Part shown: positions 1 through 10,961 of the stretch, piece by piece
Numbering within the stretch: position 1 is the stretch's first letter
Layout of the letters: each line of letters opens with the position of its first letter
Source of the DNA: a virus
Strand: one strand, 5' to 3'
UHGV virus genome: UHGV-0272930
DNA length: 11,061 bases
Program-made: the position numbers and the translations under genes
Notes under the pieces: generated by a model
The model's input: the letters and a program-made list of their open reading frames with translations, nothing else
Told to the model about the DNA's origin: nothing
Databases searched by the model: none

Positions 1-2
1 TG

Positions 3-110
3 CGGGCAACGGTGTTTAATTATATCGAATGTGATTACAATCGGTGGCGGCGGCACAGTTGGTGTGGCGGCCTCAGTCCGGAACAATTTGAAAACCAGAA
101 CCTCGCTTAG
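3..110 (+). CDS. insF: IS3 transposase OrfB (InsF), C-terminal fragment; 5' end lies outside the window
   Basis: Open frame from the window edge to TAG at 108-110; the translation matches the remembered IS3 OrfB C-terminus. Confidence 0.85.
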
Positions 111-140
111 GCCTGTGTCCATATTACGTGGGTAGGATCA
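102..140. repeat. IS3 right terminal inverted repeat (IRR)
   Basis: ctcgcttaggcctgtgtccatattacgtgggtaggatca; its reverse complement aligns with 10923-10961 at 28 of 39 positions, with the conserved TGATC tip. Confidence 0.85.
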
Positions 141-2899: not shown

Positions 2900-3522
2900 T
2901 ATTTGTACTTCCAGTTTTGATTTTGATTAACTTGCCCTAACAGACTAAAGTACTCATCACCTTTGTAGTAAGATTGATATACTGAGTTAGCAGCAATTAA
3001 GGTCGGCTGTCGGTCTAGCTTTTTATATACACTGTTAACGTATATCGTCATTTCGTTAGTTTTTTGATTTGGGTCTGCTACTGCCTGTACGTAATCAATG
3101 AATCCTGAAAACATAAGCATTGAATCGATTACAGTACTGTCATATGGATTCAAGATTACTAATTTGATATTCATCTGAGCATCTTTAAGAAATCCACCTA
3201 ATGCAAGTGCACGTACTGATTGATTCACATTACTGACTTTGAAGTTGATAGCATCATTCGTGATGCCCTTTTGTTCTGAATAGGAAGGAAGTGAACCACT
3301 GATAATATCGGGGAAACTAATATATTGATAACCATCTAAATTGATATCTATAAGTGAGTCTGTCCAGTGAAAACCATTTGTGCCTTTTGGAAGTACATCA
3401 AAACAAGTTACCTGTACACCCAAGCTCATTACATCCATTAGTGTTAATCGTGTTTTCGTCGTACCTTTAACTAACTTCCAGTACTTCAATAGATTGGCAT
3501 TAGTAAAAACTGCATCATTCAT
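2899..3522 (-). CDS. Minor tail protein, lambda gpL-like (N-terminal domain only; no C-terminal Cys cluster)
   Basis: 207 aa. Occupies the lambda M-L-K-I-J position; weak motif resemblance (DGYQYISFP / FKVSNV against lambda L QYQPYP / LTVSNL). TAATG coupling at both ends. Confidence 0.45.
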   Translation of the reverse strand: MNDAVFTNANLLKYWKLVKGTTKTRLTLMDVMSLGVQVTCFDVLPKGTNGFHWTDSLIDINLDGYQYISFPDIISGSLPSYSEQKGITNDAINFKVSNVNQSVRALALGGFLKDAQMNIKLVILNPYDSTVIDSMLMFSGFIDYVQAVADPNQKTNEMTIYVNSVYKKLDRQPTLIAANSVYQSYYKGDEYFSLLGQVNQNQNWKYK

Positions 3523-4079
3523 TATGTAATATTCTCCGTTGCCTTAAATGTCATATTCATTATGTTACCGACTGGCAATGTATAGTCATTATCAGGGTCC
3601 AGTACTGCTTCGATCATCAGATTGTTATATTTAATAATCTCGCTTGCCTGTACTGTATTTTGTAAGACAGGAAAAATAGTAATAGAAGTACTGGTACGTT
3701 CTACAATGCGATATATTTTATTGTGGTTAGTAAATTGAATCCATTCACCTATCGCTAGAGAATTAGTACTGGTGTTGATTACCCTATTGCCTTTGTTAAC
3801 AAGTGCAGTACTGGTTAACGATCCCGTTTGTGTGCCTCTGTAGGTACTCAACAATCCAAGAGAAAAAGTAAAGGGCTTACCCTGTGAGTACTGAGCAAGG
3901 AAGTTTTGAACCTCTCCAATACTGGCAGTATTGAAACTTAACTGAAACTGAATCTCATAGTATTGAATACCTGTACTTCTCATGATACGTTGCCCTGTCC
4001 ATGTCTGATTTGAATAGACAGGTTCAGTACTTTTAATCTGGAAGTTTGTTATTTTTATTTGATTTGAAAAAGATGCCAT
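3522..4079 (-). CDS. Distal tail protein, lambda gpM-like with a C-terminal extension
   Basis: 185 aa. N-terminal segment YEIQFQLSF...EVQNFLAQYSQGKPFTF resembles lambda M (YSVTLSVPREEATVLESFLEEHGGWKSFLW). GAGGT Shine-Dalgarno 4-5 nt before the ATG at 4079. First gene of the tail tip set. Confidence 0.45.
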   Translation of the reverse strand: MASFSNQIKITNFQIKSTEPVYSNQTWTGQRIMRSTGIQYYEIQFQLSFNTASIGEVQNFLAQYSQGKPFTFSLGLLSTYRGTQTGSLTSTALVNKGNRVINTSTNSLAIGEWIQFTNHNKIYRIVERTSTSITIFPVLQNTVQASEIIKYNNLMIEAVLDPDNDYTLPVGNIMNMTFKATENIT

Positions 4080-4114
4080 TGTAACCTCAACAATCCTTGT
4101 TTCGAGTATTTATT

Positions 4115-4735
4115 ATGATTGACTTCTTAAACCACATATTGCCTATATTATCTGCTATTGCATTCCCTATAGTTGTTGTAGTAGTAACTCTTTATATAGT
4201 CTACAGAAGCGGAAGTACATCCATCATTGCTAATAAGATATGGGGGATATTCATTGGTGAGAAAAATTTCTTCAATGAAGAATTAGCATTAAAAGAAAAG
4301 GTTGAACATGATGTTGCTAAATTCAACTTTAAAGTAAATCTGAAAACCAGGAATCTCACTCAAATTGAACAATTTTATAAATTTCTGGAAAAATTCGATC
4401 TGGATATAGATAACTTCAAAGGACTTCGTGACTGCTACTTGCCCTCATTGCAGAAGGTCAAAAAAACATCTAAAAGTGAAATGTTTAATATTGGCCTGGT
4501 TGTCTTGTTAATAGGCGGTTTTTTGTTACCTATCTTCATTGGCGTGTTTATATTTAGAGACATTTCTACTTTCGACGGGGGGAAATTAGCAAATCTATTC
4601 TTTTATACGTTTTTAATTTCTGCCAGTACAGTTTTAAGTTTTAGTCAGTTACTTAGAAAGATTAAGTCAATCAGAACCCGTAAATTGATCTATAAAAAGA
4701 AATGCGAATATCTTGCAAACAGAAAGCCCATGTAG
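4115..4735 (+). CDS. Hypothetical membrane protein (moron) on the opposite strand to the structural operon; predicted N-terminal helix, soluble K/E/F-rich domain, two C-terminal helices and a basic tail; no recognisable family
   Basis: Only long plus-strand ORF not antisense to a minus-strand gene. ATG at 4115 (the ORF track begins at an in-frame TTG at 4097). Hydrophobic stretches ILPILSAIAFPIVVVVVTLYIVY, FNIGLVVLLIGGFLLPIFIGVFIF and FFYTFLISASTVLSFSQLL. Markedly more AT-rich than its neighbours by eye. Stop TAG at 4733-4735 lies inside a hairpin. Confidence 0.6.
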   Translation: MIDFLNHILPILSAIAFPIVVVVVTLYIVYRSGSTSIIANKIWGIFIGEKNFFNEELALKEKVEHDVAKFNFKVNLKTRNLTQIEQFYKFLEKFDLDIDNFKGLRDCYLPSLQKVKKTSKSEMFNIGLVVLLIGGFLLPIFIGVFIFRDISTFDGGKLANLFFYTFLISASTVLSFSQLLRKIKSIRTRKLIYKKKCEYLANRKPM

Positions 4736-4742
4736 GGCTTTC
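4722..4742. terminator. Candidate bidirectional stem-loop between convergent genes (8-bp stem, 5-nt loop)
   Basis: gaaagccc (4722-4729), atgta loop, gggctttc (4735-4742) form a perfect inverted repeat. It spans the moron stop codon and ends one base before the stop codon of the minus-strand tail gene (4743-4745). Flanking U-tracts are weak in both directions. Confidence 0.4.
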
Positions 4743-5846
4743 TTAAGAATTACGTCTCTGGCTGCTTCTTACTGCCTGTGTCACACTGTTGGCGTGCTTC
4801 TTCAACATTTCATTGAATTTCTTATCATCACCTGCAACGTCACCCTGAATGATTAAGGGAGCGTTAACGGTGATGTCACCAGCAGTACTACCGCCTTTGT
4901 CCTGAGTATCGAGGAATTTAGTAAGTTTCTTGTTGGCTTCTGGCTGTACGACACGCTCACCGGCTTTCAGTACGAATGATTTATTATCATAACTAGATGG
5001 TAATTCATCTACGCCGCCGTGGAACTGCCCCGCATCAGCACCTTTTGCAGTACTGATAATGCTCAATCCAAGAGAGGCTACCTGTGCATAGTTCGCAAGG
5101 TTTTGAGGCCACGGCGTAGCAAGTGCCTGTGCAAGTGCGGATTGAATGCTTAGTACTGTCTGAGCTATCGTGATCCCACGTGAAACCATGAATGCCGCTT
5201 CGGCTGCACCAGACGATTCCCCAAATGCGGCCACCATCGCCCCACTAAGGTTTTGTGCAGTATCTGAGAAGATTGTGAGTTGTTGCTGTGCATTCTGGTT
5301 ACTGATATCAATGGCCTGAGCATTGTACTTTGCTGTTATACCAGTAGTGTTAGCACCTACGCCGTAATCCCCCTGATAGACAGGAAGAGGTGCAGCCATT
5401 GTCATTACACGGGCAACTACATCAGCAGGTGTAAATGAATAGGATTTAGTAACTACCTGATCCTTATCCCCGGATAATTGAGTACCCGTAACGTAACCAT
5501 TGACGATGGCATAAGTGATCTGACTTTCTTCTAAATCTAATTGATACTGAATAATGACCTGAAATACAGTTTGTGATTCAGCTATTTCATCTAAGAATTG
5601 GTGCGTAGGATCATCAGGTAAGTATGCAACCACAATATCAAATGGTTCTACTGATTTATCGGATAGTAGTACTGTCTTGTACTCATTATCATAGGTTTCA
5701 AAATTATTTGTTTCTGACTGGATGGTTAGAGCAGGAAATTCAGTTACATTATTAATAGTAACATTGCCTATGCCCTGTGGTGAACGGTTTCCAGTGTCCG
5801 TATTATATTGTAAAGTTAATCCCTTACCTGAAAAAATGTCGGCCAT
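4743..5846 (-). CDS. Chimeric tail protein: major tail tube (lambda gpV-like) N-terminal domain joined in frame to a tape-measure (lambda gpH-like) C-terminal region
   Basis: 367 aa. Residues 1 to about 150 (...TEFPALTIQSETNNFETYDNEY...KSVEPFDIVVAYLPDD...) resemble the gpV N-domain. Residues from about 160 are a Gly/Ala-rich hydrophobic block followed by GQFHGGVDEL...FVLKAGERVVQPEANKKL, resembling tape-measure C-termini. AAGGA Shine-Dalgarno 8 nt before the ATG at 5846. Confidence 0.5.
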   Translation of the reverse strand: MADIFSGKGLTLQYNTDTGNRSPQGIGNVTINNVTEFPALTIQSETNNFETYDNEYKTVLLSDKSVEPFDIVVAYLPDDPTHQFLDEIAESQTVFQVIIQYQLDLEESQITYAIVNGYVTGTQLSGDKDQVVTKSYSFTPADVVARVMTMAAPLPVYQGDYGVGANTTGITAKYNAQAIDISNQNAQQQLTIFSDTAQNLSGAMVAAFGESSGAAEAAFMVSRGITIAQTVLSIQSALAQALATPWPQNLANYAQVASLGLSIISTAKGADAGQFHGGVDELPSSYDNKSFVLKAGERVVQPEANKKLTKFLDTQDKGGSTAGDITVNAPLIIQGDVAGDDKKFNEMLKKHANSVTQAVRSSQRRNS

Positions 5847-5863
5847 TTTATATCCTTATAGCG

Positions 5864-6256
5864 TTATCTTGTTTTCTCCGTAACTTGAATATTTATCGTG
5901 AATGATAAAGAAACCGAGCCAGTTATAGGGTCTGTTACGATATCGGATTGTTCATATGAGTAAGAGAGAATGATTAAATCAGCATCCTTGAAAGCACGTG
6001 CTTTCTCATTATCAAAAGTACTGATAATCTGATCATAAGTAATTGATGGTGCAGTGTTGCCTGATTCTGGTTTTGGACTAATCAAGTACTGAATAGCAAA
6101 GTTACCTGCTTGTCTCTGCCCTCCAAAAGAAATTGAAGACAATGAGTAATCAAATGCTATCTGTTCAAATACATCGGCATCACGTGATATTGTTAGATTC
6201 TTAGTTGCGTTGATTAGCTGTTTCATTGTCTGGCGTACTTTCTGTACTAACATCAT
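5864..6256 (-). CDS. Putative tail terminator / tail completion protein (lambda gpU position and size)
   Basis: About 130 aa when started at the ATG at 6256, which is preceded by a GAGGA Shine-Dalgarno and lies 1 nt after the upstream stop. The ORF track's start at 6334 would overlap the upstream gene by 77 nt and is probably a spurious extension. Weak resemblance to gpU (SRDADVFEQIAFDY against GRPAVFDEADFPAV). Confidence 0.35.
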   Translation of the reverse strand: MMLVQKVRQTMKQLINATKNLTISRDADVFEQIAFDYSLSSISFGGQRQAGNFAIQYLISPKPESGNTAPSITYDQIISTFDNEKARAFKDADLIILSYSYEQSDIVTDPITGSVSLSFTINIQVTEKTR

Positions 6257-6257
6257 A

Positions 6258-6581
6258 TTAGTAGTCCTCTGCAAATGAAGCACCAGCAGAAGTACGAAAG
6301 TAGCAATTAACCATACCTGACCGATCATCTTCAATATTATAAATTGTTTGGTTTACACCATCGATGATCAGTACTGTACCGATAGCTATATCAGCATTAA
6401 CTAAATCATCCTTTCTCATTGTTACGTATGTTTCTGTACTTTCGATAAATCCACCTGCCGCTTCAATAGAAACGGGAAGTACTTCTGCAATTCCAGTAAA
6501 AGTACTTCCCGTAGAAGTTTGGATTAATTGACCGAAAGCATTTAGAAACGTATCTTGTTGACCGTTAGAAAATGCTCTCAT
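6258..6581 (-). CDS. Head-tail joining protein, lambda gpFII-like
   Basis: 107 aa. C-terminal half (...DIAIGTVLIIDGVNQTIYNIEDDRSGMVNCYFRTS) resembles lambda FII (...GDTLTIGEENFWVDRVSPDDGGSCHLWLGRG). Lies directly downstream of the capsid gene. Confidence 0.5.
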   Translation of the reverse strand: MRAFSNGQQDTFLNAFGQLIQTSTGSTFTGIAEVLPVSIEAAGGFIESTETYVTMRKDDLVNADIAIGTVLIIDGVNQTIYNIEDDRSGMVNCYFRTSAGASFAEDY

Positions 6582-6586
6582 AGTTA

Positions 6587-10408
<3,822 letters not shown>

Positions 10409-10411
10409 TTA

Positions 10412-10961
<550 letters not shown>

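What the first reader, a model, noticed from the sequence alone, without database searches (positions are those of the whole stretch)
4097..4735. Reverse-oriented AT-rich membrane-protein gene inserted between the tape-measure-like and M-like tail genes
Every structural gene is on the minus strand and tightly coupled, yet one roughly 206-aa ORF sits on the plus strand exactly at the H/M junction, which is contiguous in lambda. It is visibly more AT-rich than its neighbours, has no Shine-Dalgarno shared with the operon, and ends in its own hairpin. The product has one N-terminal and two C-terminal hydrophobic helices around an 80-residue K/E/F-rich domain and a very basic C-terminal tail (RKIKSIRTRKLIYKKKCEYLANRKPM). 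I recognise no domain family. Opposite-strand membrane proteins in late operons are typically morons with host-benefit functions (superinfection exclusion, abortive infection, receptor masking), so this is the most likely place in the window for an uncharacterised defence or exclusion function. Its position also forces operon transcription to pass antisense through it.
Basis: partly seen in the sequence, partly recalled or inferred. Interest (0 to 1): 0.7.

Follow-up and report, generated by a model that had tools for sequence, protein, structure and literature searches.

The report
Swappable membrane-protein gene in prophage tail operon
The backwards-facing gene is a real, conserved accessory gene of the uncharacterised DUF6216 family, sitting in a swappable slot between two tail genes of an enterobacterial prophage, and it is a plausible but untested candidate for protecting the host against other phages.

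Summary
A 206-aa ORF (ATG 4115 to 4735, + strand) lies between the tape-measure (TMP) stop and the distal-tail-protein (Dit) start, and every other long ORF is on the - strand. It is under strong purifying selection (dN/dS 0.06-0.10) and is the most AT-rich gene in the window. AlphaFold models it confidently as a three-helix membrane protein with a 90-aa cytoplasmic domain and a basic tail.

It is a short form that lacks the Cys-bearing loop domain of the 260-300-aa members.

In 50 related viral contigs found through Dit, the TMP/Dit junction is:
- empty (56-139 bp) in 36;
- occupied by DUF6216 in 4;
- occupied by an unrelated 190-aa membrane protein in 8;
- occupied by a DUF726 hydrolase in 2.

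Every cargo is reversed. Cargo swaps independently of 97-99%-identical flanks. So this is an accessory (moron) slot, not a tail component.

Long-form relatives sit in the P2-like S/V slot and in Pseudomonas defence-type islands. No known defence, Sie, phage or structural family matches. Function is inferred only: most likely exclusion or defence at the inner membrane. No promoter for the gene was found. The window's prophage is itself defective (5.2-kb deletion, IS3 insertion).

The parts
4115..4735 (+). Cargo gene: 206-aa short-form DUF6216 protein. Layout: TM1 about aa 8-30, cytoplasmic domain aa 31-122, TM2 about 124-147, 10-aa loop, TM3 about 158-179, basic tail 180-206.
   Evidence: ORF. 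Start codon shared by all homologues. Pfam PF19723, E 5.6e-22. dN/dS 0.06-0.10. AF2 pLDDT 92.5. Hydropathy and charge.
4097..4114 (+). In-frame TTG extension listed by the ORF finder; probably not translated. It overlaps the ATAAATAC element.
   Evidence: No homologue carries the six extra residues.
4721..4743 (.). 9-bp GC-rich hairpin (AGAAAGCCC-ATGTA-GGGCTTTCT). It spans the cargo stop codon and touches the TMP stop codon. It belongs to the slot and looks like a two-way terminator without a canonical U-tract.
   Evidence: Fold -14.3 kcal/mol, z -3.5. Stem invariant in all DUF6216 loci and also present behind the unrelated 190-aa cargo in L029 and L024. Not called a terminator by the scan. 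Empty junctions do carry scan-positive terminators at this place.
4080..4114 (-). 35-nt spacer between the Dit start and the cargo start. It holds the conserved motif ATAAATAC (- strand, 4113-4106), 27-34 nt upstream of the Dit ATG. Candidate Dit promoter or leader element.
   Evidence: The motif is present upstream of Dit in all eight empty junctions examined and, as a conserved TATTTAT/GTATTTAT core, in the DUF6216 and 190-aa-cargo loci but not the two hydrolase loci. It is the single occurrence in the window. It recurs before other - strand genes in L001, L009 and L013.
3522..4079 (-). Distal tail protein (Dit), the conserved right-hand anchor of the slot.
   Evidence: phrog_1302 E 2.6e-14 and a weak, sub-threshold Pfam match to the pb9 B domain. 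49-100% identical homologues in 50 IMG/VR loci.
4743..5339 (-). Last 198 codons of the tape measure gene, the conserved left-hand anchor of the slot.
   Evidence: phrog_13674 and phrog_1506 TMP C-terminus. 98% identical to L001 10647-11243. Homologues in all 50 viral loci.
5337..5846 (-). 5' part of the 946-aa Peptidase_S74-bearing tail gene, fused in frame to the TMP remnant by a 5.2-kb deletion. This yields the 367-aa ORF 4743-5846.
   Evidence: Window 5337-9530 matches L001 16446-20639 and window 140-5339 matches L001 6044-11243. Junction sequences. Split PHROG matches.
1..139 (.). End of an IS3-family insertion sequence that truncates the J-like tail-tip gene (124-2505).
   Evidence: 98.4% identity to IS3 in 1407 plasmid records. 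Homology to L001 starts at window 140.

Best explanation
**What is shown.** The gene is the cargo of a single-gene accessory ('moron') slot. The slot lies exactly between the tape-measure stop codon and the distal-tail-protein start codon of a lineage of low-GC temperate siphovirus-type prophages of Enterobacteriaceae (Kosakonia, Scandinavium). The slot is bounded by a terminator-type hairpin next to TMP and a conserved ATAAATAC element next to Dit. It can be empty or hold any of at least three unrelated reversed genes, and cargo is exchanged independently of the flanks.

**What the cargo is (shown).** It is a minimal form of the uncharacterised DUF6216 family.

**Topology (inferred).** The N-terminus faces the periplasm. 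TM1 is followed by a conserved 90-aa cytoplasmic domain, then TM2, a 10-aa periplasmic loop, TM3 and a strongly basic cytoplasmic tail.

**Mechanism (inferred).** The gene is expressed from the repressed prophage, inserts into the inner membrane and protects the lysogen against superinfecting phages at the membrane. The most likely route is interference with genome entry, as the unrelated three-TM protein P22 SieA and HK97 gp15 do. The reversed orientation keeps it outside late-operon control. It may also allow late transcription or RNA polymerase at the adjacent Dit element to silence it during the phage's own lytic growth.
For: **The slot.**
- Same position and orientation in all 18 contigs that carry 58-100%-identical homologues, including a Kosakonia cowanii chromosome and Scandinavium lactucae.
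- In 50 loci found through Dit, independently of cargo: 36 empty, 4 DUF6216, 8 with a 190-aa one-TM protein, 2 with a DUF726 hydrolase. All cargoes are reversed. The cargoes are not homologous to one another.
- Cargo moves independently of the flanks. L020 has 97-99%-identical flanks but the other cargo. L010 has 97-99% flanks but a 71% cargo. L083 has a 40% cargo against 65-82% flanks.
- Boundary elements.

**The gene.**
- Functional gene: dN/dS 0.06-0.10.
- Membrane architecture.
- In long forms, two invariant Cys lie in the insert between TM2 and TM3, which fits a periplasmic loop.
- The cytoplasmic domain is the best conserved region.

**Family context.**
- A 290-aa Rahnella member sits between gpS and gpV of P2-like prophages. 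That is the variable orf30 slot of P2 (PMC6823313).
- Pseudomonas members lie beside an OLD/retron-I-B-type ATPase (PADLOC 2.9e-43) and in an island with a PLD nuclease, PDC-S32/AbiJ, Abi_C and ApeA-HEPN.

**Precedents.**
- HK97 gp15, a tail-operon moron, is an inner-membrane superinfection-exclusion protein (PMC3594210).
[quoted passage not shown] The gene is reversed and convergent with ejection gene 16.
- Small high-turnover loci between two conserved phage genes are reservoirs of anti-phage genes (PMC9122126).
- A defence gene placed divergently inside a late operon has been described (PMC11364771).
Against: - There is no homology to any known defence or exclusion protein: PADLOC none, P22 SieA hhalign probability 1.9%, HK97 gp15 0.3%.
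- None of the three cargo types matches PADLOC, so 'defence hot spot' rests on analogy.
- No convincing promoter for the cargo was found. Expression from the prophage is therefore unproven.
- The most conserved part is cytoplasmic. That is not what one would first expect of a protein that meets an incoming tail tip in the periplasm.
- Of five chromosomal long-form contexts, three (L078, L079, L085) show no defence neighbours.
- The family is rare. Only 9 clusters at 90% identity of the short phage form exist in 5.8 billion proteins, and only 99 representatives at E below 1e-3 in 1.84 billion.
Confidence: 0.45

Rival explanations
1. Abortive-infection-type membrane effector. The conserved cytoplasmic domain senses a phage cue. 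The three TM helices then oligomerise and depolarise or permeabilise the inner membrane, killing the infected lysogen before progeny are made.
For: - The cytoplasmic domain is the most conserved part.
- The gene stands alone.
- Family members sit beside Abi-type genes and a defence-type ATPase in Pseudomonas.
- The phage form dispenses with the periplasmic domain, so the active core is TM helices plus the cytoplasmic domain.
Against: - No similarity to known Abi or pore-forming effectors.
- A toxic effector in a prophage would need tight control, and no partner gene exists in the slot.
Confidence: 0.2
2. A lysogenic-conversion or housekeeping-type membrane function unrelated to phages (envelope stress, transport modulation, colonisation). 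It is carried as a moron because it benefits the host in another way.
For: - Three of five chromosomal contexts are solitary genes among metabolic genes.
- No defence signature was found in any cargo.
- Morons are known to have diverse roles (PMC3594210).
Against: - The slot turns over quickly among near-identical phages.
- The family recurs in a second phage's variable tail-gene slot and in defence-type islands.
- Both are patterns typical of anti-phage cargo (PMC9122126).
Confidence: 0.2
3. A lytic-cycle function for the phage itself: a holin/antiholin-like lysis-timing protein (three TM helices, N-out/C-in, basic tail), or an accessory factor for tail assembly or genome injection.
For: - The topology and basic C-terminal tail resemble class I holins (comparison from general knowledge).
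- The position is next to TMP.
- The lysozyme gene of full-length relatives is also on the + strand.
Against: - The gene is absent from 46 of 50 related loci, which keep the same tail genes.
- It is replaceable by unrelated genes.
- In full-length relatives it lies about 6 kb from the lysozyme gene (L001 3411-3860 against 10001-10639), not adjacent to it.
- Solitary chromosomal homologues exist.
- It is transcribed against the late operon.
Confidence: 0.07
4. A chance or decaying ORF in AT-rich spacer DNA with no function.
For: - Weak Shine-Dalgarno (GAG) and no detectable promoter.
- The prophage in this window is itself defective.
Against: - dN/dS 0.06-0.10 with saturated synonymous divergence.
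- Intact in every locus, down to 40% identity.
- Significant Pfam match.
- Confident fold prediction.
Confidence: 0.02

Closest known systems
Pfam DUF6216 (PF19723), an uncharacterised proteobacterial membrane-protein family
   Same: - Significant HMM match (78.7 bits).
- Shared N-terminal TM helix, RSGS...NR/K-x-W...G-x-K and D-x-x-K/R-F-N motifs, TM2, TM3 and basic tail.
   Different: - The phage form is 206 aa and matches only profile positions 8-141 of 270.
- It lacks the roughly 80-100-aa insert with two invariant cysteines between TM2 and TM3 that typical 260-300-aa members carry.
- No function is known for any member. One paper mentions the name in passing.
Salmonella phage P22 SieA (superinfection exclusion)
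   Same: - Prophage-encoded inner-membrane protein with three predicted TM segments, about 164 aa, single gene (PMC10883804).
- Its gene is reversed relative to the late operon and convergent with the gene for a DNA-delivery protein (gene 16), 22 bp away. The cargo here is convergent with TMP in the same way.
   Different: - No sequence or profile similarity (BLASTP E 13; hhalign probability 1.9%).
- SieA has an annotated promoter of its own. None was found here.
- SieA lacks the 90-aa cytoplasmic domain.
- Function here is untested.
HK97 gp15 and the other tail-operon morons (HK97 gp22, gp23 'reverse moron')
   Same: - An extra gene between tail genes that are adjacent in relatives, with deviant composition.
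- A membrane protein; gp15 blocks genome entry and depends on the incoming phage's tail tube or TMP (PMC3594210).
- HK97 also has a reversed moron between I and J.
   Different: - gp15 is 62 aa with one TM helix, is co-oriented with the operon, lies between the chaperone and TMP genes, and belongs to the YebO family.
- It is not homologous to this protein (hhalign probability 0.3%).
Prophage diversity hot spots carrying anti-phage systems (P2 old/tin locus, P4 psu-int locus; P2 orf30 slot between S and V)
   Same: - A small locus with high turnover between two conserved phage genes (definition in PMC9122126). Here there are four states across 50 loci, and swaps between 97-99%-identical flanks.
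- A long-form DUF6216 occupies the S/V slot of P2-like prophages (PMC6823313).
   Different: - The slot is much smaller (0.6-0.9 kb, always one gene) and lies inside the tail module.
- None of its cargoes matches a known defence protein.

Membership tests
Pfam DUF6216 (PF19723) | Score above the family's gathering threshold | tested here: met
   78.7 bits against a cut-off of 27.3, E 5.6e-22. All homologues carry PF19723 in precomputed annotation.
Pfam DUF6216 (PF19723) | Full-length architecture of typical members (about 270 aa, with a Cys-containing domain between TM2 and TM3) | tested here: not met
   Only profile positions 8-141 of 270 are matched. The alignment shows the insert with invariant C194 and C219 is absent from the short phage forms. 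It is therefore a truncated or minimal subfamily.
Phage moron (Juhala/Hendrix sense) | Inserted between two genes that are adjacent in related phages | tested here: met
   36 of 50 Dit-anchored loci have a 56-139 bp TMP/Dit junction without an ORF.
Phage moron (Juhala/Hendrix sense) | Base composition differs from the neighbours | tested here: met
   GC 0.324 against 0.392 for the window, lowest 1.4% of windows. The difference from the adjacent Dit (0.360) is modest.
Phage moron (Juhala/Hendrix sense) | Own promoter and terminator (an independent transcription unit) | tested here: inconclusive
   The hairpin is present but belongs to the slot and lacks a U-tract. No sigma-70-like promoter was found upstream in 5 of 6 loci.
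Phage moron (Juhala/Hendrix sense) | Expressed from the repressed prophage | not testable with these tools
   Needs RNA-seq or 5'-RACE on a lysogen.
Prophage anti-phage hot spot (Rousset et al. 2022, PMC9122126) | Small locus with high gene turnover between two conserved phage genes | tested here: met
   Four junction states. Unrelated cargo between 97-99%-identical flanks.
Prophage anti-phage hot spot (Rousset et al. 2022, PMC9122126) | Cargo includes recognised defence systems | tested here: not met
   No PADLOC match for DUF6216, the 190-aa protein or the DUF726 hydrolase.
P22 SieA family | Sequence or profile homology to SieA | tested here: not met
   BLASTP E 13. hhalign probability 1.9%.
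P22 SieA family | Blocks DNA injection by related phages | not testable with these tools
   Needs phage challenge, potassium-efflux or DNA-entry assays.
HK97 gp15 / YebO family | Sequence or profile homology to gp15 | tested here: not met
   hhalign probability 0.3%.
Holin (class I-like) | Required in the phage lineage and encoded with the lysis genes | tested here: not met
   Absent from 46 of 50 related loci. It lies about 6 kb from the lysozyme gene in full-length relatives (L001 3411-3860 against 10001-10639), not adjacent to it.
Tail-assembly component | Conserved with the tail module | tested here: not met
   Absent or replaced in 46 of 50 loci that keep TMP, Dit and the downstream tail genes.

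The most novel reading that the evidence does not exclude
DUF6216 is a new family of single-gene, membrane-anchored anti-phage (exclusion or abortive) proteins. Temperate phages trade its members as cassettes in slots inside tail modules: TMP/Dit here, S/V in P2-like phages. The phage-borne 206-aa form defines the minimal active core, three TM helices plus a novel cytoplasmic domain with no known fold relative. The TMP/Dit slot would itself be a previously undescribed one-gene hot spot. Its other cargoes (a 190-aa one-TM protein and a DUF726 serine-hydrolase-like protein) would then also be new defence candidates.
Probability: 0.4. Interest if true: 0.6.

Novelty: new member of a known kind. 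Interest (0 to 1): 0.45.

Why it matters
If the protein does exclude or abort other phages, an entirely uncharacterised Pfam family (DUF6216) would gain a function. It would also add a new fold to the short list of inner-membrane exclusion proteins, whose mechanisms are poorly understood.

The slot gives a ready comparison set for experiments. Near-identical prophages carry DUF6216 alleles of 100%, 91%, 71% and 60% identity, two unrelated cargoes, or nothing.

The slot also shows that high-turnover accessory loci can be as small as one gene and can sit at an internal terminator/promoter boundary of a tail operon. That is useful for mining similar slots in other phages.

If nothing comes of the phage tests, it is one more moron of unknown role.

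Tried and rejected
**Homology searches that found nothing useful.**
- PADLOC, PHROGs and NCBIfam gave nothing for the protein or for long-form relatives.
- A profile search against PDB sequences gave no hit at E up to 10.
- Foldseek against viral structures gave no hit with E at or below 0.001.
- The afdb50 library was unavailable.
- GenBank phages gave no match by DNA or by tblastn with the short or the long form. Complete E. coli genomes gave no DNA match.

**Other searches.**
- The genome-contig scan with the wide alignment failed for lack of a conserved stretch. With the narrower alignment it found one species, Scandinavium lactucae.
- A literature search for DUF6216 found one incidental mention.

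**Hypotheses rejected.**
- Homology to P22 SieA, to HK97 gp15, or to the alternative 190-aa cargo.
- Tail-assembly component, holin, and chance ORF (see rival explanations).

**Promoter search.**
- No conserved sigma-70-like site was found. The one scan hit in the window places the -10 over the start codon.
- I first read the conserved 35-nt spacer as a leader of the cargo. Comparison with empty junctions shows its conserved core (ATAAATAC) belongs to the Dit side.
Full report
**1. The observation.**

The ORF finder lists 4097..4735 (+) as 212 aa from a TTG. It is the only sizeable + strand ORF in the tail region, and the - strand genes are tightly packed. They are a terminase remnant, a 176-aa connector-like protein, portal, a protease-capsid fusion, small head-tail proteins, a 367-aa 'TMP-like' ORF, Dit, a 207-aa tail protein, DUF6950 and a J-like protein.

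Eight homologues all begin at the ATG at 4115. It lies 35 nt from the Dit start and 7 nt from the stop of the TMP-derived ORF.

GC is 0.324 against 0.392 for the window, in the lowest 1.4% of equal-sized windows. The adjacent Dit and tail genes are also low, at 0.35-0.36.

Hydropathy and charge give two strong hydrophobic segments and one weaker one, with a tail of 11 K/R against 1 D/E. AlphaFold2 with a 41-sequence alignment gives pLDDT 92.5 and pTM 0.80, with long helices 2-32, 120-147 and 155-202 around a small alpha/beta domain.

A 9-bp hairpin at 4721-4743 folds at -14.3 kcal/mol, z = -3.5.

Pairwise dN/dS is 0.06-0.10 where synonymous sites are not saturated, so this is a constrained protein-coding gene.

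**2. What the protein is.**

It covers only profile positions 8-141 of 270.

An exhaustive HMMER search of 1.84 billion representatives found 99 relatives at E below 1e-3. About ten are roughly 200-aa proteins like this one. The rest are 260-300 aa and match only the first 145 or so residues.

Alignment shows the long forms have an extra 80-100 residues with two invariant cysteines between TM2 and TM3. The phage form has a 10-residue loop there. TM3 and the basic tail align again afterwards.

The cysteines in the long-form loop and the basic tail give the inferred topology: N-terminus out, 90-aa domain in the cytoplasm, short loop out, tail in. This is inferred, not shown.

The cytoplasmic domain is the best conserved part: mean pairwise identity 0.57 against 0.31-0.49 elsewhere in the phage subfamily, and 0.32 against 0.15-0.24 family-wide. 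D66, N71, G48 and F70 are invariant or nearly so.

Nothing else is known about the family:
- no PADLOC, PHROG or NCBIfam model;
- no PDB sequence relative;
- no meaningful fold match for the whole model or the isolated domain;
- one incidental literature mention.

**3. The surroundings: a swappable slot.**

The identical protein occurs on at least 24 assembled contigs. Homologues down to 58% identity occur in further lineages, including a Kosakonia cowanii chromosome and Scandinavium lactucae. It is always between TMP and Dit and always reversed. A 40%-identical homologue sits in the same place in L083.

To avoid selecting on the cargo, I collected 50 IMG/VR loci through the Dit protein (49-100% identity) and measured the TMP-stop to Dit-start interval:

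| Junction state | Loci |
|---|---|
| Empty, 56-139 bp, no ORF | 36 |
| DUF6216 | 4 |
| Reversed ~190-aa protein with one N-terminal TM helix | 8 |
| Reversed ~260-aa DUF726-type alpha/beta-hydrolase-like protein | 2 |

The 190-aa protein has no Pfam or PADLOC match and only a weak hit to phrog_3829. It is unrelated to DUF6216 by hhalign (probability 0.3%).

Cargo and flanks are uncoupled:
- L020 shares 97-99% identical Dit, TMP C-terminus and downstream tail genes with the window but carries the 190-aa gene.
- L010 shares 97-99% flanks but its DUF6216 is only 71% identical.
- Elsewhere the cargo is consistently more diverged than the flanks (60% against 76-90%; 40% against 65-82%).

The gene is not a conserved tail component. 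It is one of several alternative occupants of an accessory slot.

**4. Anatomy of the slot.**

In empty junctions the TMP stop is followed by a GC-rich hairpin with a T-run, which the scan calls terminator-like (one-way in L057, two-way in L036). Next comes a conserved (T)ATAAATAC motif, then a small hairpin or ribosome-binding region, then the Dit ATG.

In cargo-bearing loci the cargo lies between these two elements. The hairpin stays next to TMP. Its left arm is read as the last codons of the different cargoes (RKP(M)* in DUF6216, TESPD* in the L029 cargo). ATAAATAC stays 27-34 nt upstream of Dit (window 4113-4106 on the - strand), directly abutting the cargo ATG. The same motif recurs upstream of other - strand genes in full-length relatives.

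So the hairpin is not the cargo's own. The 35-nt spacer belongs at least partly to Dit.

In the DUF6216 loci the hairpin has lost a canonical U-tract in both directions and is not called a terminator by the scan. I therefore cannot say whether late transcription stops before the cargo or runs antisense through it.

I found no credible sigma-70-type promoter for the cargo. The one scan hit puts the -10 over the start codon, and a lenient scan of 200 nt upstream was empty in 5 of 6 loci. Independent expression is thus assumed, not shown.

**5. Where else the family occurs.**

- A 290-aa member from Rahnella lies between gpS and gpV of P2-like prophages, and close relatives are on IMG/VR P2-like contigs. 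This is the position of P2 orf30, known to vary between P2-like phages (PMC6823313).
- In Pseudomonas, one member is next to a 488-aa ABC/OLD-type ATPase whose best PADLOC match is the retron I-B ATPase-Toprim effector (2.9e-43).
- Another sits in an island with a PLD-type nuclease, a PDC-S32/AbiJ-N-terminal protein, Abi_C and an ApeA-HEPN protein.
- Three others are solitary genes with long intergenic flanks among ordinary genes, one beside a Bro-N-like gene.

This is suggestive of mobile, defence-associated cargo. The sample is small.

**6. How it most likely works.**

Shown: it is accessory cargo of a high-turnover slot, a constrained gene, and by prediction a polytopic membrane protein.

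Inferred: it is expressed in the lysogen and acts at the inner membrane against incoming phages.

The nearest functional models are:
- HK97 gp15, a tail-operon moron whose membrane product blocks genome entry in a way that depends on the incoming tail tube or TMP (PMC3594210).
[quoted passage not shown] Its gene is reversed and convergent with ejection gene 16.

Neither is homologous to this protein, so the claim is 'works like', not 'is a'.

The general rule that small variable loci between conserved phage genes hold anti-phage genes comes from P2/P4 (PMC9122126). A defence gene placed divergently within a late operon, with the proposal that this ties its expression to the phage's state, is described for Tai systems (PMC11364771).

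The conserved cytoplasmic domain fits an abortive-infection sensor/effector almost as well. I rank that as the main rival. A non-phage conversion function cannot be excluded. A holin, tail-assembly or chance-ORF reading is rejected on distribution and selection.

**7. Novelty and verdict.**

Reversed or extra membrane-protein genes in tail operons are a known kind of thing.

What is new is the family (DUF6216, never studied), its minimal phage form, and the one-gene TMP/Dit slot with at least three unrelated cargoes.

I file it as a new member of a known kind, with moderate interest. It is cheap to test and comes with a natural allelic series, but the function is unproven and a specialist would not be greatly surprised.

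**8. Other things seen.**

The prophage in this window is defective.
- A 5.2-kb deletion relative to L001 removed most of TMP, both chaperones, the major tail protein and most of a 946-aa Peptidase_S74 protein.
- Bases 1-139 are the end of an IS3-family element that truncates the J-like gene.
- The window is 100% identical to IMG/VR contig UViG_2698536647_000002 over the two end segments compared (bases 1-160 and 9500-10079) and in the cargo, Dit and TMP C-terminal proteins.

Noticed in passing
window 4743-5846 (- strand); junction at 5337-5339: The 367-aa 'tape-measure-like' ORF is an in-frame fusion made by a 5.2-kb deletion relative to full-length relatives (L001 11243..16446). Its N-terminal half comes from a 946-aa Peptidase_S74-bearing tail protein, whose N-terminus resembles major tail proteins (phrog_158). 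Its last 198 aa are the TMP C-terminus. The major tail protein, both chaperones and most of TMP are missing, so this prophage cannot make tails.
   Followed up: yes
window 1-139 (and L019 9921-10238): The left end of the window is the terminus of an IS3-family insertion sequence (98.4% identical to E. coli IS3). It truncates the J-like gene to 793 aa, against 1067 aa in relatives. The same IS end abuts window position 763 in L007. Contigs L010-L012 break at the same 30 nt inside their TMP genes, so this IS has hit these prophages repeatedly.
   Followed up: partly
window 4106-4113 (- strand); L001 3401, 7640, 10010; L009 3364, 9991, 14327; L013 3365, 4166, 9991, 14327: The motif (T)ATAAATAC lies 27-40 nt upstream of Dit in the empty junctions examined and in the DUF6216 and 190-aa-cargo loci, and recurs mostly in intergenic spots upstream of other - strand late genes. 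It may be a phage late-promoter or regulatory element. It resembles the T4 late promoter TATAAATA (from memory). It is not tested, and a single occurrence in the window is what chance predicts.
   Followed up: partly
L020, L021, L022, L024-L027, L029 (TMP/Dit junction); L023, L028: Two other reversed cargoes occupy the same slot. One is a ~190-aa protein with one N-terminal TM helix (no Pfam or PADLOC match, weak phrog_3829). The other is a ~260-aa DUF726-type serine-hydrolase-like protein with a GHSLG motif (phrog_35015). Both are uncharacterised and would be candidates for the same kind of function.
   Followed up: partly
L001 3411-3860 (+), 2921-3346 (-); same in L002, L006, L009, L010, L013, L017: In full-length relatives the lysozyme gene (PF00959) is also reversed within the - strand late region. 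It is divergent from a SegE-like GIY-YIG homing-endonuclease gene. No holin was identified next to it.
   Followed up: no
L070/L071 8001-8873; L073, L074, L076: A 290-aa long-form DUF6216 gene occupies the gpS/gpV junction (the P2 orf30 position) of P2-like prophages of Rahnella and relatives. There it is co-oriented with the tail genes.
   Followed up: partly
L072 6413-7879 and 8001-8819; L077 7001-14810: In Pseudomonas knackmussii a DUF6216 gene directly follows an OLD/retron-I-B-type ATPase (PADLOC 2.9e-43), possibly forming a two-gene unit. In Pseudomonas sp. J452 it lies in an island with a PLD nuclease, PDC-S32/AbiJ-NTD, Abi_C and ApeA-HEPN genes.
   Followed up: partly
window 6587-8413 (- strand) and 8361-9869: The capsid gene encodes a 608-aa fusion of a prohead protease (Peptidase_S78) and a major capsid protein (Phage_capsid). 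It overlaps the portal gene by 53 nt. The whole element has about 39% GC although its identified hosts are Enterobacteriaceae, whose genomes are GC-richer (general knowledge).
   Followed up: no
window 5864-6334 and 6258-6581 (- strand): The 156-aa ORF from a TTG overlaps the preceding 107-aa gene by 77 nt. Relatives have a 129-130-aa gene here, so the real start is probably further downstream.
   Followed up: no
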